Positions 57,501 to 60,500 of a stretch of 64,000 bases of DNA are shown here, one piece after another. The position numbers are program-made. Position 1 is the first letter of the stretch; the number at the start of each line of letters is the position of its first letter. Location: assembly GCF_057098645.1 (NCBI RefSeq), contig NZ_CM169472.1; one strand, 5' to 3'.

Positions 57501-60500
57501 CAGCTTTCACGCGAGGGTTTAGCGTTAGTTTTGCGGGCGACCAGGTAGACGGTAAACATCAGGACGACTGCGCATAGCAAACCAGGTACCAGACCGGCGA
57601 TAAACATTTTTCCGATAGAGACGTCGGCAACCAGACCGTAAATAATCAGGGCTATTCCCGGCGGTATGATCGGGGTGACTAACGAGCCACCAGCGGTAAT
57701 GGCGGCGGCAAATGCGCGATTGTAGCCTTTACGCTCCATCTCCGGCACCATCATGCGCGACAGCATCGCCGCGTCAGCAAGGTTAGAGGCGCTGACGCCG
57801 CCCATCATGGTGCTGACGAGAATGTTTGCCACGCCAAGTCCGCCGCGCATTTTCCCCACCAGAACGTTGGCAATGTGCAGGATGCGTTCGGCAATGCCGG
57901 TGTAGCTCATTAGTGTGCCGAGCAAGATAAAAAACGGAATTGCCAGCAATGATGGGCTTTGCGTTGGCGCGATCAGTCTTTGCACGGCAATTTCAATCGG
58001 TACGCTGGAGAAGAATAAAAAGTAAGCGATGATGCCAATAAACATCGCCAGATAGACCCGAATGTTGAGAAACAAACAGACGATCATTAGCGGAATAATC
58101 AATAACCAACTCATTGCATTTTTTCTCCGCTATCGGATTGTTTTATATCGTGTATTAACCAGTAGAGGGTATAAATAGCCGTTGCCAGTGCGCCGACAGG
58201 GACCGCCAGATCGATCCAGAACCAGGAAACCTTCAGAATTTGTGTCACTTTAAACTGCGCCATTTCGGCTAGTCGGTAGCCCAGCCAGGCCATATACAGC
58301 AGCAGTGTGATGGAGAGAACGGCGACCAGTACTGCAATAACACGCCTGTGTTTGCCTGGAAGCATCTCCATCAGGAAGGGAATGGTCAGGTGCGCCCTGT
58401 CACGTTCCGCCACCACTCCACCTAACATCACCACCCAAATCATCAGCATTCCCGACATTTCTTCTGTCCATTGAAGCGGTTGGCCGATGAAATAACGCAT
58501 AAATACCGCTCCAATTGTCATCACAACCAGAACGAATAGCGCAAAGGCAGCACTAAATTCTGCCACTTTGCCAAAAAGACGCATGAAACCTCCTGTTAGT
58601 GCGTGTCCTGCCTAAGAGAGATGAGGCAGGACGCTGAGCATTAATGCTTATTGCAGTTGCTGTTGAATGGTTTCGTACAGACCTGGTGTCCATTCCGGGA
58701 ATTGAGAGTAAACTTCGCGTGCTTTCTTCTGGAATGGTCCAGTATCGGGATAGATCACTTCGACGCCCGCTGCCTGCATGGTTTTCAACATTTCGGCATC
58801 ACGCTCAAGAGTGAGTTTCTGGCTATAGACACCCGCTTCATAGCCGGTCTGGTGGATCATCTCCAGTTGTTCTGGTGAAAGGGTGCTAAAGAAGGCTTCA
58901 CTACCTATCCATACTGAGGTATTTGTCAGGTAGTTAACCATTGTCAGATATCTTGCCTGCTCATACAGTTTTTGCCCTTGCAGCACTGAAATTGGGTTTT
59001 CTACGCCGTCAATGACGCCCTGGGTTAATGCGGGATAAACTTCGCCTAATGGCATGGGAGTTGGTGTTGCCCCCATCGCCTGAATGGCTTTTATTTGCAT
59101 GACGTTATTAGGAACGCGAATTTTTAAGCCTGCGAGATCGTCAACGGTGCGAATGGGTTTTTTCGAAATAATCTGTCGAGTGCCATAGAGATAATTATTC
59201 ATTACCACATGAATTCCCTTTTTCTTCAGACTTTCATTTTTTTGTTTAAACCAGTCGCTTTCATATATTTTGAACAGTTTTTGTGGATCGTCAGTCAGAT
59301 ACGGTCCAAACAAAATACCCAAATCGGGTTCATAATCGGCAAGAAAGGCCACATCACTCAAGGTTATGACATTCATGCCCATCATGGCTTGCTCGGTGAC
59401 ATCCTGTTTTGAGCCCAATTGGGAACTTGGATAGAGCGCAAGTGTTATTTCGCCATTACTTTTTTTATTTAATAGGTCTGCCCAGTAACGCATGACCACA
59501 TCCAGGGGTTCTCCAGGGTTATTTTCATAGGCAACTTTTATCGAAATAGGTTTTGCCTGGATTATTGACGGTAAAAAAAGGGTACTGACAGTAATTAGCA
59601 TCGCTATTATTTTGCTCATCTTTACTTACTCCATGCTAAGGAAATAAAACTCCAACATTGTTGTCGGGAGTGAAACCTTATGAAAAAGCAGTCATTACTG
59701 AAAAGTAGTCAGCGAATAGCGGAATGGCTGCAGATGTGTCATAAATTCGTGCACCGGGTAATACTTTGCTGCTTTTAATCGGTTTTTAATGCATTTTTTG
59801 ATTGTATATCTTAAAGTTATGTAATGCATGACGTTACAAGGAACACCCTCTGATGAGTTTAGTTACCGCTGATAAGATCTCTTATTCGGTTGATGATTTA
59901 TTAAAAATAAAATCATTAATTTGGCTGTGGCTATTTTTACAGATAAAAACTAAGTGTTGACGCAGAATGGTGGTATCCATTAAATTTATTTAGTGCTGAT
60001 TTAATACATTTGCTGAACGTATAATTCATGCTGACGTTAAAAGAAAGCCGTCATTCACTAAATAACTTGTTCGGCAAGGAGATCAAAGAGTAACGGATGA
60101 TTCGTTACAACGGTTAAAGGTAGTAAATATTCACGTGATGAATTTGTTATCAACTGGAAAACTCATCTCACTGGTTTCCTCCTGAGCATGTGAGTGAACG
60201 TTGTGATTAATGATTAACGTTAAGTGCTAACCAGGGCGCTTTTATGAAGTTAAATTAATAATATCCATTATTTATGAATGAGGAAGCCTGTTTATTATAT
60301 GGAAATATTTTTAACAATTTTAATTCTTACGTTGGTAGTATCATTAACCAGCGTGCTTACGCGTCTGTCTCCTGTTCAGATACCACTTCCTTTAATCCAG
60401 ATTGCCGCTGGCGCTTTACTGGCCCAACCCATATTTGGTCTGCATGTGGAATTCAATCCTGAACTTTTTCTCTTATTGTTTATACCCCCCTTGTTGTTTG

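What the first reader, a model, noticed from the sequence alone, without database searches (positions are those of the whole stretch)
59620..60277. 660-bp AT-rich divergent control region with unannotated small ORFs
The gap between the TRAP operon and the antiporter gene is unusually long and AT-rich. It contains at least two short ORFs with plausible starts, 59679..59777 (32 aa, MKKQSLLKSSQRIAEWLQMCHKFV...) and 59852..59959 (35 aa, hydrophobic C-terminus). They could be leader peptides, small membrane proteins or non-coding regulatory sequence.
Basis: seen in the sequence. Interest (0 to 1): 0.25.

Follow-up and report, generated by a model that had tools for sequence, protein, structure and literature searches.

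The report
Non-coding control region, spurious small ORFs
The long AT-rich gap between a sugar-acid TRAP transporter operon and a sodium/proton antiporter gene in this E. coli O145:H28 window is an ordinary non-coding control region, built when the antiporter gene was added to the L-galactonate locus, and its small ORFs are chance reading frames.

Summary
The gap is real. It spans 59620-60298 (679 bp, 34.5% GC against 50.1% for the window) and is the longest unannotated gap in the window. The window is E. coli O145:H28.

Both small ORFs exist, one base off the stated coordinates, but they are not genes:
- ORF1 shrinks to 9 or 13 codons in two divergent Escherichia alleles.
- ORF2 is frameshifted even in close relatives and loses its ATG in the divergent alleles.
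- ORF number and length are within chance, and nothing matches Pfam or NCBIfam.

The region is composite.
- **59620-59790** is the ancestral upstream region of dctP, homologous to the lgoR-dctP spacer of Citrobacter.
- **About 59791-62100** (500 bp of upstream DNA, a yjcE-like antiporter gene and 150 bp of 3' flank) is extra DNA relative to Citrobacter and K-12. It is bracketed by two copies of a 21-bp box, ATTAARWACNNATTWAAARCA.
- A third copy of the box lies in the lgoR/lgoD promoter region. The box is the most conserved non-coding element and is probably the regulon's operator.

One promoter-like site, TTGACG-18-TAAATT (59957-59986), is conserved in all three lineages and faces the antiporter. 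I found no Rfam match and no sign of a conserved or unusually stable RNA fold.

Verdict: an ordinary regulatory region of low interest.

The parts
59620..60298 (.). Whole intergenic region between dctP (minus strand) and the antiporter gene (plus strand): 679 bp, 34.5% GC.
   Evidence: ORF list and PGAP annotation of the identical RM13514 genome. Composition. No feature is annotated under the match in any of the records listed, out of about 860 matching E. coli genomes.
59680..59778 (+). ORF1 (32 aa, MKKQSLLK...). A chance ORF, not a gene.
   Evidence: Truncated to 13 aa (E4742-like) and 9 aa (N50). There is no ATG at the aligned position in Citrobacter. No Pfam or NCBIfam match. The exact sequence was never called as a protein in the 15-billion-protein collection.
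59853..59960 (+). ORF2 (35 aa). A chance ORF lying in the least conserved part of the gap.
   Evidence: 18 aa in 2013C-4225, 28 aa in the B2-type alleles, and ATA start in N50 and E4742-like. Between O145 and N50 the region is 36% identical with 51 gap columns. Some pipelines call it only as 'hypothetical protein'.
59695..59829 (-). 44-aa ORF on the minus strand, the longest in the gap. A chance ORF.
   Evidence: The start is lost in 2013C-4225 (ATA) and the frame is broken after 5 codons in N50 and E4742-like. It spans the junction between ancestral and acquired DNA.
59620..59790 (-). Ancestral upstream region of dctP, homologous to the lgoR-dctP spacer of Citrobacter amalonaticus and in part to the lgoR-lgoT spacer of K-12.
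   Evidence: Alignments A2 and A5. No conserved RNA fold: alifold consensus energy -0.47 kcal/mol.
59770..59790 (-). lgo box, copy a: ATTAAAAACCGATTAAAAGCA. Two 11-bp-phased ATTAAAAAC-like units, 150 bp upstream of the dctP ATG. Candidate operator.
   Evidence: 100% and 95% identical across Escherichia lineages whose four-fold degenerate sites in dctP are only 37-46% identical. One of exactly 3 matches in 64 kb, against 0.03 expected.
62101..62121 (-). lgo box, copy b: ATTAAGTACAGATTAAAAACA, immediately after the lgoR stop codon. It is the counterpart of the single K-12 copy (20 of 21 identical).
63046..63066 (+). lgo box, copy c: ATTAAAAACCGATTTAAAACA, in the lgoR/lgoD divergent promoter region, pointing toward lgoD.
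   Evidence: 23-nt inverted repeat with copy a, 91% complementary. Conserved with at most 1 mismatch in K-12, CFT073, Citrobacter, N50 and E4742-like.
59791..62100 (+). Extra DNA relative to Citrobacter and K-12: about 500 bp of upstream sequence, the yjcE-like antiporter gene (60299-61951) and about 150 bp of 3' flank. It is bracketed by box copies a and b. The left boundary is uncertain by about 11 bp.
   Evidence: Citrobacter has lgoR>dctPQM with a 172-bp spacer and no antiporter. K-12 and O157 Sakai have lgoR-lgoT. Homology to both resumes exactly at the boxes.
59801..59829 (-). Conserved block at the junction, ATTGTATATCTTAAAGTTATGTAATGCAT. It contains a TACAAT -10-like hexamer on the dctP strand (59806-59801).
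   Evidence: 80% identical across lineages. In N50 it is scored as CAGACA-18-TACAAT. It is not scored as a promoter in O145.
59957..59986 (+). Promoter-like TTGACG-18-TAAATT facing the antiporter. It would give a leader of about 305 nt.
   Evidence: It is the only promoter-like site found at the same aligned position in all three lineages. It is a consensus match only; no transcript data exist.
60129..60143 (.). Conserved dyad ATTCAC-N3-RTGAAT, with invariant arms and a variable centre. The protein that might bind it is unknown.
   Evidence: Alignments; 80% identity, flanked by sequence 27-47% identical.
60190..60222 (.). Conserved block containing tandem GATTAA-N-GATTAA (60205-60217).
   Evidence: 73-79% identical across lineages. 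A candidate helix with 60243-60258 tolerates all observed changes, but that is expected about half the time by chance (and my own count).
60263..60298 (+). Conserved translation-initiation region of the antiporter. The true start is ATG at 60299.
   Evidence: 81% identical across lineages. ATGGAAATA is shared by the Klebsiella and Limnobaculum homologues; Edaphovirga has ATGGATATA.
59652..59667 (-). Weak hairpin followed by a U-rich tail, 33 nt upstream of the dctP ATG. Terminator-like by pattern only.
   Evidence: It is not recovered as a conserved structure.

Best explanation
The gap is a non-coding, composite, divergent control region. It contains no small-protein gene and no detectable structured RNA.

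Shown:
1. The dctP-proximal 170 bp (59620-59790) is the ancestral upstream region of a TRAP transporter that belongs to the L-galactonate (lgo) locus.
2. The remaining roughly 500 bp came with a yjcE-like Na+/H+ antiporter gene. That gene lies between lgoR and dctP in about 16% of E. coli genomes and is absent at this site from Citrobacter, K-12 and O157.
3. A 21-bp box made of 11-bp-phased ATTAAAAAC units brackets the acquired segment and occurs a third time in the lgoR/lgoD promoter region.
4. The box is the most conserved non-coding sequence in the gap.
5. The stretch carrying ORF2 has drifted to saturation.

Inferred:
1. The box is the operator of the lgo regulon, most simply bound by LgoR. 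If so, dctPQM is induced together with lgoD by L-galactonate.
2. Placing the antiporter gene in the opposite orientation cut dctPQM off from lgoR read-through. dctPQM would then depend on a promoter at or next to the box, in the conserved junction block 59801-59829.
3. The antiporter is transcribed from the conserved TTGACG-18-TAAATT site, with a leader of about 300 nt carrying further protein-binding blocks (the dyad at 60129-60143 and the GATTAA repeat at 60205-60217).
4. The AT-rich acquired DNA is likely bound by H-NS.
5. The antiporter probably recycles the Na+ that a Na+-coupled TRAP transporter brings in.
For: Identity and context. The window is 100% identical to O145:H28 genomes, and the locus occurs in 863 of 5426 complete E. 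coli genomes with no feature annotated under the match in the listed records.

Composite origin. Citrobacter has lgoR>dctPQM with a 172-bp spacer. K-12 and Sakai have lgoR-lgoT. In alignments A2 and A5, homology runs up to the box on both sides of the extra 2.3 kb.

The box. It has exactly three matches in 64 kb against 0.03 expected, all in the lgo locus. Copies a and c form a 23-nt repeat that is 91% complementary. The box is present in the lgoR/lgoD region and before the transporter gene in K-12, CFT073, Citrobacter, N50 and E4742-like, and absent from the unrelated TRAP-antiporter loci of Klebsiella and Limnobaculum. An 11-bp-period array lies upstream of the orthologous dctP in Edaphovirga.

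Constraint. Four-fold degenerate sites are 37% (dctP) and 51% (antiporter) identical between O145 and N50. By contrast the box is 100% identical, block D 88%, and the ORF2 region 36% with 51 gap columns.

The ORFs. They are broken in other alleles, within chance expectation, and match no protein family.

No RNA signal. There is no Rfam match at E <= 1. Leader fold z-scores are -1.0, -0.16 and -1.07. Consensus folds are weak.

The promoter. TTGACG-17/18-TAAATT is found in all three lineages.

The regulon. In K-12, lgoRT and lgoD are induced together (PMC5934670; bioRxiv 10.64898/2026.05.20.726482). The Sakai record annotates LgoR as an activator.

The TRAP transporter. The closest solved binding proteins are 4ovt (E = 4e-146) and 4o8m. 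TRAP systems specific for L-fuconate and L-galactonate are documented next to lgoD (PMC5507952). TRAP transport is sodium-driven (PMC9971032, abstract).
Against: No transcript, ribosome or protein-binding data could be consulted, so all promoter and operator assignments rest on sequence alone.

The box is a direct repeat rich in A-tracts. It is not the interrupted palindrome typical of GntR/FadR-family operators, so LgoR may not be what binds it. It could instead be a DNA-curvature, UP-like or H-NS element.

Box-like arrays in Edaphovirga and Affinibrenneria lie upstream of dctP with no lgoR within the 4 kb held on either side.

The number of promoter-like sites is not above chance. The junction -10-like hexamer has no acceptable -35 in O145.

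Only three independent Escherichia lineages were available, and two of them (N50 and E4742-like) are related to each other.

A very short conserved reading frame (ATG plus SD-like GGAG at 59680) survives in all three Escherichia lineages. Translation of a micro-ORF cannot be formally excluded.
Confidence: 0.8

Rival explanations
1. ORF1 and/or ORF2 encode real small proteins: a leader peptide that controls the neighbouring transporter genes, or a small membrane protein.
For: Both have an ATG and a Shine-Dalgarno-like sequence at a plausible distance. The ATG and GGAG of ORF1 are kept in all three Escherichia lineages. The O145 form of ORF2 has a hydrophobic tail and is called 'hypothetical protein' by some pipelines, on more than 900 contigs.
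Against: ORF length is not conserved: 32, 13 and 9 aa for ORF1, and 35, 18 and 28 aa or no ATG for ORF2. The ORF2 region is at neutral saturation with many indels. Citrobacter has no ORF1 start. ORF count and length are within chance. No family matches. ORF1 lies about 280 bp upstream of the only conserved antiporter-facing promoter-like site and is antisense to the dctP upstream region, which is a poor position for a leader peptide.
Confidence: 0.04
2. The roughly 300-nt stretch upstream of the antiporter gene is a structured cis-regulatory RNA, for example a Na+/Li+- or pH-sensing leader, or it encodes a small RNA.
For: The only conserved promoter-like site implies a leader of about 305 nt. 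Close homologues of the antiporter in Klebsiella sp. I138, Limnobaculum and Edaphovirga also have 640-750 bp of upstream non-coding DNA, whereas ordinary yjcE orthologues have 150-320 bp. Klebsiella has a promoter-like site about 355 nt upstream of its ATG. One 11-bp helix (60205-60217 with 60243-60258) tolerates all substitutions seen.
Against: No Rfam family matches at E <= 1, so no described riboswitch family was detected. Fold energies are indistinguishable from shuffles, with z = -1.0, -0.16 and -1.07. The consensus fold has many broken pairs and a covariation term of only -1.5 kcal/mol. I estimate about a 50% chance that the helix is preserved without any selection. Most of the leader is 27-47% identical between lineages. 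No terminator-like site is conserved in the other two lineages.
Confidence: 0.08
3. The repeated 21-bp box is not a specific operator. It is either a structural A-tract element (DNA curvature, UP-like, or an H-NS/Fis nucleation site) or the footprint of the insertion event (a target-site duplication).
For: The units are A5-tracts phased at 11 bp, and the number of units varies between genera from 2 to about 4-6. The box does not look like a GntR/FadR palindrome. Two copies exactly bracket the acquired 2.3 kb.
Against: The non-A positions (C9, G11, C20) are conserved as well, and the box is invariant where synonymous sites are saturated. A third copy lies in the lgoR/lgoD promoter, far from the insertion, and is conserved in K-12 and Citrobacter, which lack the insertion. 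That excludes a pure duplication artefact. A 21-bp imperfect duplication is atypical for insertion sequences. No transposase, convincing terminal repeat or second genomic copy exists. Copy b is 20 of 21 identical to the K-12 copy, while copy a resembles the Citrobacter and lgoD copies. This fits two pre-existing boxes brought together by recombination.
Confidence: 0.2
4. The gap holds the decayed remnant of a gene or mobile element.
For: It is long, AT-rich and lies in accessory DNA. The homologous gap in Limnobaculum carries an extra block of about 190 bp that is less AT-rich.
Against: None of the stop-to-stop segments of at least 30 aa in six frames matches Pfam or NCBIfam, even at E <= 10. 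The sequence is single-copy in E. coli. Plasmid hits outside E. coli cover only the antiporter coding part.
Confidence: 0.05

Closest known systems
lgoR-lgoT / lgoD control regions of E. coli K-12 (L-galactonate regulon)
   Same: It shares the regulator gene (lgoR), the dehydrogenase gene (lgoD) and the same 21-bp box, both in the lgoR/lgoD spacer and in front of the transporter gene. About 35 bp after the box are also homologous (GCAAA-TATTA-GCACG).
   Different: The transporter here is a TRAP system (dctPQM) rather than the MFS symporter LgoT. An antiporter gene with 500 bp of its own upstream DNA is interposed, so the box is present twice and the transporter genes are no longer directly downstream of lgoR. 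I found no published operator for LgoR in the searchable library.
lgoR-dctPQM locus of Citrobacter amalonaticus
   Same: DctP is 90% identical, and the box-to-ATG distance (150 bp) and the dctP-proximal sequence blocks are conserved.
   Different: Citrobacter has no antiporter gene. Its spacer is 172 bp rather than 679 bp.
nhaA regulatory region of E. coli (NhaR- and H-NS-controlled Na+/H+ antiporter promoter; from my own knowledge)
   Same: It is an antiporter gene preceded by a long AT-rich control region, presumably bound by proteins.
   Different: The antiporter here is CPA1/YjcE-like, not NhaA. No nhaR-like gene is adjacent. No NhaR site could be recognised, and none of this was tested.
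Li+/Na+ riboswitches upstream of cation transporter genes (nhaA-I and DUF1646 motifs; from my own knowledge)
   Same: The position fits: a long non-coding stretch in front of a Na+/H+ antiporter gene.
   Different: No Rfam family matches, and there is no stable or covarying structure.
TRAP-antiporter gene pairs in Klebsiella sp. I138 and Limnobaculum xujianqingii
   Same: The closest non-Escherichia antiporter homologues (77% identical) are again divergent from a dctPQM operon across a 700-750 bp gap.
   Different: The TRAP system differs (353-aa DctP, 493-aa DctM) and so does the GntR regulator. There is no lgo box, and the gap sequences align only in short patches.

Membership tests
Small protein / leader-peptide gene | The reading frame (start, length, stop) is conserved in related genomes. 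| tested here: not met
   ORF1 is 32, 13 and 9 aa. ORF2 is 35, 18 and 28 aa, or has lost its ATG. The 44-aa ORF loses its start or is broken.
Small protein / leader-peptide gene | Sequence is constrained above the neutral level. | tested here: not met
   The ORF2 region is 36% identical with 51 gap columns, the same as four-fold sites in dctP at 37%. ORF1's higher identity (75%) is explained by the overlapping box and block D, which are conserved in Citrobacter, where the ORF does not exist.
Small protein / leader-peptide gene | Similarity to a known protein family. | tested here: not met
   No Pfam or NCBIfam match below the curated cut-offs, even at E <= 10.
Small protein / leader-peptide gene | Evidence of translation (ribosome profiling or peptide detection). 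| not testable with these tools
   No expression data are available. O157 Sakai, for which small-ORF ribosome profiling exists (my own knowledge), lacks this locus.
Riboswitch / structured cis-regulatory leader or sRNA | Match to a described RNA family. | tested here: not met
   cmscan against 4227 Rfam families over 58500-61500, both strands, E <= 1: no match.
Riboswitch / structured cis-regulatory leader or sRNA | Fold more stable than shuffled sequence. | tested here: not met
   z = -1.0 (O145), -0.16 (N50) and -1.07 (Klebsiella).
Riboswitch / structured cis-regulatory leader or sRNA | Base pairs kept by compensatory change. | tested here: inconclusive
   The consensus fold scores -25.9 kcal/mol with a covariation term of -1.5 and many broken pairs. 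One 11-bp helix is fully kept, but that is compatible with chance. Only three independent lineages were available.
Divergent promoter/operator region | It lies between divergently oriented genes and shows islands of conservation in otherwise drifting sequence. | tested here: met
Divergent promoter/operator region | A cis element is shared with other promoters of the same regulon. | tested here: met
   There are three copies of the 21-bp box in the lgo locus and none elsewhere in 64 kb. The box is conserved in K-12 and Citrobacter.
Divergent promoter/operator region | Mapped transcription starts and regulator binding. | not testable with these tools
   Only consensus scans were possible.
GntR/FadR-family operator (as the LgoR site) | An interrupted palindrome of the NyGT-Nx-AC-Ny type. 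| tested here: not met
   The box is best read as direct ATTAAAAAC units at 11-bp spacing. Citrobacter has ATTAAAAAC-AC-ATTAAAAAC. Dyad symmetry is partial in copies a and c and absent in copy b and the Citrobacter copy (by inspection).
Insertion sequence / MITE / transposon insertion | Transposase or terminal inverted repeats, multiple genomic copies, and a short exact target duplication. | tested here: not met
   No transposase-like frame. The sequence is single-copy per genome. The flanking repeat is 21 bp, only 81% identical, and pre-exists in genomes without the insert. A possible 12-nt gapped terminal repeat is not kept in N50 (by inspection).
H-NS-bound horizontally acquired AT-rich DNA | AT-rich relative to the genome and part of the accessory genome. 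| tested here: met
   GC is 0.345 against 0.501. The locus is present in 16% of E. coli genomes.
H-NS-bound horizontally acquired AT-rich DNA | H-NS occupancy. | not testable with these tools
   No ChIP data are available.

The most novel reading that the evidence does not exclude
The 11-bp-phased ATTAAAAAC box may be the still undescribed operator of the L-galactonate regulator LgoR (or of another regulator of this regulon). In about one in six E. coli genomes it would control a two-part module acquired in place of LgoT: a Na+-coupled TRAP transporter for L-galactonate/L-fuconate, paired across this gap with a dedicated Na+/H+ antiporter that recycles the co-transported sodium. The antiporter would be expressed through a long leader carrying its own control sites.
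Probability: 0.3. Interest if true: 0.35.

Novelty: new member of a known kind. Interest (0 to 1): 0.2.

Why it matters
It matters little for small-protein or RNA discovery. The ORFs that prompted the finding are noise, and pipelines that call ORF2 'hypothetical protein' should drop it.

The modest value lies elsewhere:
- It gives a precise map of an uncharacterised control region in pathogenic E. coli (O145:H28 STEC, and B2 strains such as CFT073).
- It offers a testable candidate operator for the lgo regulon. I found no published LgoR binding site.
- It is an example of a proton-coupled sugar-acid transporter being replaced by a sodium-coupled TRAP system that comes with its own Na+/H+ antiporter.

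Tried and rejected
1. Protein-coding remnant. The stop-to-stop frames of at least 30 aa were scanned against Pfam and NCBIfam at E <= 10. Only sub-threshold noise came back.
2. Known RNA families. None matched.
3. Structured leader. Three single-sequence folds and two consensus folds gave no signal.
4. The inverted repeat 59814-59833 / 60049-60068 (85% over 20 nt) as ends of a MITE. My estimate is about 0.2 such pairs by chance, and the right arm is not conserved in N50. Rejected.
5. The direct repeat 59784-59843 / 59999-60046. It is a weak, gapped similarity of AT-rich sequence and was not pursued.
6. A fourth, degenerate box at 59988-60008 next to the antiporter promoter-like site. It has 3 mismatches in O145 but 6 or more in N50 and E4742-like. 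I do not count it as evidence for co-regulation (by inspection).
7. The perfect TATAAT at 60020-60025. It is not conserved in N50 or E4742-like.
8. CRP, Fur, ArcA, marbox and LysR-type readings of the conserved blocks, judged by eye. None was convincing, and none is claimed.
9. Locus L080 as an independent TRAP-antiporter pairing. It is a chimeric low-coverage metagenome contig: E. coli sequence up to about nt 490 of the antiporter gene, then a Franconibacter-like yjcE context.
10. Literature by CFT073 locus tags. This returned only unrelated papers. Searches on lgoR found no operator or TRAP description.
11. Plasmid search. Apart from one E. coli chromosome-sized record, only the antiporter coding part matches (yjcE paralogues); the upstream 500 bp has no relative there.
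Full report
**What the window is.** The stretch 59400-60500 is 100% identical to several E. coli O145:H28 genomes. In RM13514 the local gene order is tsr > < dctM < dctQ < dctP [gap] > Na+/H+ antiporter < GntR-family regulator > lgoD. The regulator is the counterpart of K-12 LgoR. K-12 and O157:H7 Sakai carry the MFS symporter gene lgoT directly downstream of lgoR in place of dctPQM plus the antiporter. The TRAP/antiporter form occurs in 863 of 5426 complete E. coli genomes, including CFT073. No feature is annotated under the match in any of the listed records.

**Checking the observation.** With the conserved start codon of the antiporter at 60299, the gap is 59620-60298, or 679 bp. 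The homologues in Klebsiella and Limnobaculum begin at the ATGGAAATA that corresponds to 60299, and Edaphovirga has ATGGATATA there.
- The gap is the longest between annotated genes in the window; the next longest is 466 bp.
- Its GC content is 0.345 against 0.501 for the window, in the lowest 2.6% of windows of the same size.
- The two ORFs exist at 59680-59778 (32 aa) and 59853-59960 (35 aa), one base off the stated coordinates.
- They are not more than chance gives. There are five ATG-ORFs of at least 30 aa, against 2.2 +/- 1.4 in simulations (P = 0.05). The longest, 44 aa, has P = 0.57.

**The ORFs are not genes.** I aligned the gap from five Escherichia alleles:
- O145;
- an allele about 98% identical (2013C-4225);
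- the allele about 95.7% identical found in strains such as AR_0372 and CFT073;
- two deeply divergent alleles, from strain N50 and from a contig carrying the antiporter of Escherichia sp. E4742.

The frames behave as follows:
- ORF1 reads 32 aa in the first three alleles, 13 aa in E4742-like and 9 aa in N50. Citrobacter has no ATG at the aligned position.
- ORF2 is cut to 18 aa by a 1-nt deletion in 2013C-4225 and to 28 aa by an 11-bp insertion in the alleles about 95.7% identical. It begins with ATA in the divergent alleles.
- The 44-aa minus-strand ORF loses its start in 2013C-4225 and is broken in the divergent alleles.

The stop-to-stop frames of at least 30 aa match no Pfam or NCBIfam model. 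ORF2 has been called 'hypothetical protein' by some pipelines, which is not evidence of function.

**How much of the gap is constrained.** The divergent alleles are very old. Four-fold degenerate sites of dctP are only 37% identical between O145 and N50, the same as between O145 and Citrobacter amalonaticus (38%). Those of the antiporter gene are 51% identical. Against that background the gap as a whole is 56% identical. The identity is concentrated in islands:

| Element | Coordinates | Identity, O145 vs N50 / vs E4742-like |
|---|---|---|
| 21-bp box | 59770-59790 | 100% / 95% |
| Surrounding block D | 59735-59790 | 88% / 84% |
| Junction block | 59800-59829 | 80% / 80% |
| Promoter-like site | 59957-59986 | 77% / 70% |
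| Dyad | 60129-60143 | 80% / 80% |
| Block with tandem GATTAA | 60190-60222 | 79% / 73% |
| Translation-initiation region | 60263-60298 | 81% / 81% |

Between the islands identity falls to 27-47%. The stretch carrying ORF2 is 36% identical with 51 gap columns. This is the pattern of a protein-binding control region, not of coding sequence.

**The gap is a composite.**
- In three Citrobacter genomes, lgoR is followed after 172 bp by dctPQM in the same orientation, with no antiporter.
- The E. coli sequence 59620-59790 aligns with that spacer, and its first 35 bp after the box also align with the K-12 lgoR-lgoT spacer.
- Homology to both genomes stops at a 21-bp sequence, ATTAARWACNNATTWAAARCA.
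- That sequence occurs once after the lgoR stop codon in K-12 and Citrobacter, but twice here: at 59770-59790 and at 62101-62121.
- The 2.3 kb in between is therefore extra DNA. It comprises about 500 bp of upstream sequence, the antiporter gene and about 150 bp of 3' flank.
- The antiporter is a paralogue of YjcE, about 60% identical to yjcE orthologues that sit after yjcD with short upstream gaps.

**The box is not just a scar.**
- A third copy lies at 63046-63066 in the lgoR/lgoD promoter region, in inverted orientation and 91% complementary to copy a over 23 nt.
- The pattern has exactly these three matches in 64 kb, even with two mismatches allowed, against 0.03 expected. The pattern was derived from these copies, so this number shows only that no further copies exist.
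- The lgoR/lgoD copy is kept with at most one mismatch in K-12, CFT073, Citrobacter, N50 and E4742-like.
- The box reads as two ATTAAAAAC-like units 11 bp apart, and a third weaker unit precedes copy a.
- Upstream of the orthologous dctP, Affinibrenneria has three such units. Edaphovirga has an 11-bp-period array that TRF scores at 3.7 copies.
- The box is absent from the TRAP-antiporter loci of Klebsiella sp. I138 and Limnobaculum, which have a different TRAP system and regulator.

In K-12, lgoRT and lgoD are induced together (PMC5934670). The simplest reading is therefore that the box is the regulon's operator. LgoR is the obvious candidate, but the direct-repeat form is not typical of GntR/FadR operators, so I hold this at about 45%.

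Copy b is 20 of 21 identical to the K-12 copy. Copy a resembles the Citrobacter and lgoD copies. This suggests that two pre-existing boxes were brought together by recombination, for example replacement of lgoT by a donor segment 'antiporter - gap - box - dctPQM'. It argues against a target-site duplication. There is no transposase, no convincing terminal repeat and no second genomic copy.

**Promoters.** Consensus scans are not enriched over shuffles. Only one site recurs at the same aligned position in all three lineages: TTGACG-17/18-TAAATT at 59957-59986, facing the antiporter. It implies a leader of about 305 nt.

On the dctP strand, a conserved TACAAT (59806-59801) lies just upstream of the box. 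It scores as a promoter in N50 only. The antiporter gene is inserted in the opposite orientation between lgoR and dctP, so dctPQM can no longer be reached by read-through from lgoR and must rely on a promoter in this area. Where that promoter lies is unresolved.

**No RNA element.**
- Rfam gives nothing at E <= 1.
- The putative leader folds no better than shuffles in O145 (z = -1.0), N50 (-0.16) and Klebsiella (-1.07).
- The consensus fold is weak, with a covariation term of -1.5 kcal/mol.
- One 11-bp helix is kept in all lineages. By my count its two U-to-C changes would fall opposite a G about half the time by chance.
- The dctP-proximal 160 nt has no consensus structure at all, at -0.47 kcal/mol.
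- The two terminator-like hairpins on the minus strand are weak, and neither was detected as a terminator-like site in the other two lineages.

**Functional logic (inferred).**
- The DctP protein is closest to the solved binding proteins 4ovt (E = 4e-146) and 4o8m. From memory, these were crystallised with L-fuconate and L-galactonate; I could not confirm this in the library.
- TRAP systems with dual L-fuconate/L-galactonate specificity next to lgoD are documented (PMC5507952).
- TRAP transport is sodium-driven (PMC9971032).
- The closest non-Escherichia relatives of this antiporter (77% identical) again lie divergent from a dctPQM operon, a different one, across 700-750 bp gaps.

A dedicated Na+/H+ antiporter that removes co-transported sodium is a reasonable role. 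It is untested.

**Verdict.** The gap is an ordinary, if unusually long and composite, non-coding control region. Its most informative content is a repeated box that is probably the lgo operator.

Noticed in passing
window 56843-63027, compared with K-12 (L071) and O157 Sakai (L081): The lgo locus exists in two forms in E. coli. One has lgoR-lgoT (K-12, O157:H7). The other has dctPQM plus a yjcE-like Na+/H+ antiporter (O145:H28, CFT073; 863 of 5426 complete genomes). A proton-coupled MFS symporter is replaced by a sodium-coupled TRAP system with its own antiporter.
   Followed up: partly
L002 (strain N50) and L077 (E4742-like contig), compared with window 58648-63027: Alleles of this locus within Escherichia are as divergent at four-fold sites as Citrobacter: dctP is 37% identical between O145 and N50, and 38% between O145 and Citrobacter. 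The E4742-like contig is mosaic. Its dctP and gap are N50-like (73.5% at four-fold sites) but its antiporter gene is O145-like (81%). That places a recombination breakpoint near the antiporter start.
   Followed up: partly
L080 (ENA ERZ827177 contig, coverage 2.7x): This is a chimeric metagenome contig. It is identical to the B2-type E. coli sequence through the gap and the first ~490 nt of the antiporter gene. It then drops to about 60% identity and continues into a LysR-LrgAB-SSF context, like that next to Franconibacter yjcE (L085).
   Followed up: yes
L072 (Klebsiella sp. I138) 3236-6650; L075/L076 (Limnobaculum xujianqingii) 3188-6650: The closest non-Escherichia homologues of the antiporter are again divergent from a TRAP operon, a different one with a 353-aa DctP, across 703-751 bp gaps. 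A further homologue sits next to a DASS Na+ symporter (L079) and another in a plasmid-like Rep3/ParA context (L074).
   Followed up: partly
L075 about 4400-4590 (columns 151-293 of alignment A4): The Limnobaculum gap carries about 145-190 bp that are absent from Klebsiella and less AT-rich. This may be a decayed gene fragment.
   Followed up: no
L082 15445-16418 (CFT073 reference genome): dctP is annotated as a frameshifted pseudogene in CFT073, so the TRAP system may be inactive in that reference strain.
   Followed up: no
L060 3657-3698 (Edaphovirga cremea), L008 3730-3760 (Affinibrenneria salicis): Arrays of 11-bp A-tract units (TRF consensus GATAAAAATCA, 3.7 copies in Edaphovirga) lie 250-350 bp upstream of orthologous dctP genes. 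No lgoR lies within the 4 kb held on either side.
   Followed up: partly
window 12751-13400 and 26301-28300: Two other stretches of the window are as AT-rich as the gap, or more so (GC 0.30-0.35). The first covers the yjiC-ytiD-idlP/iraD intergenic area. The second covers a gene for a pentapeptide-repeat protein.
   Followed up: no
window 61820-61833 and 61953-61966: A 14-nt inverted repeat, 93% complementary, spans the end of the antiporter gene (arms 119 nt apart). It is too far apart for a simple terminator and its meaning is unknown.
   Followed up: no
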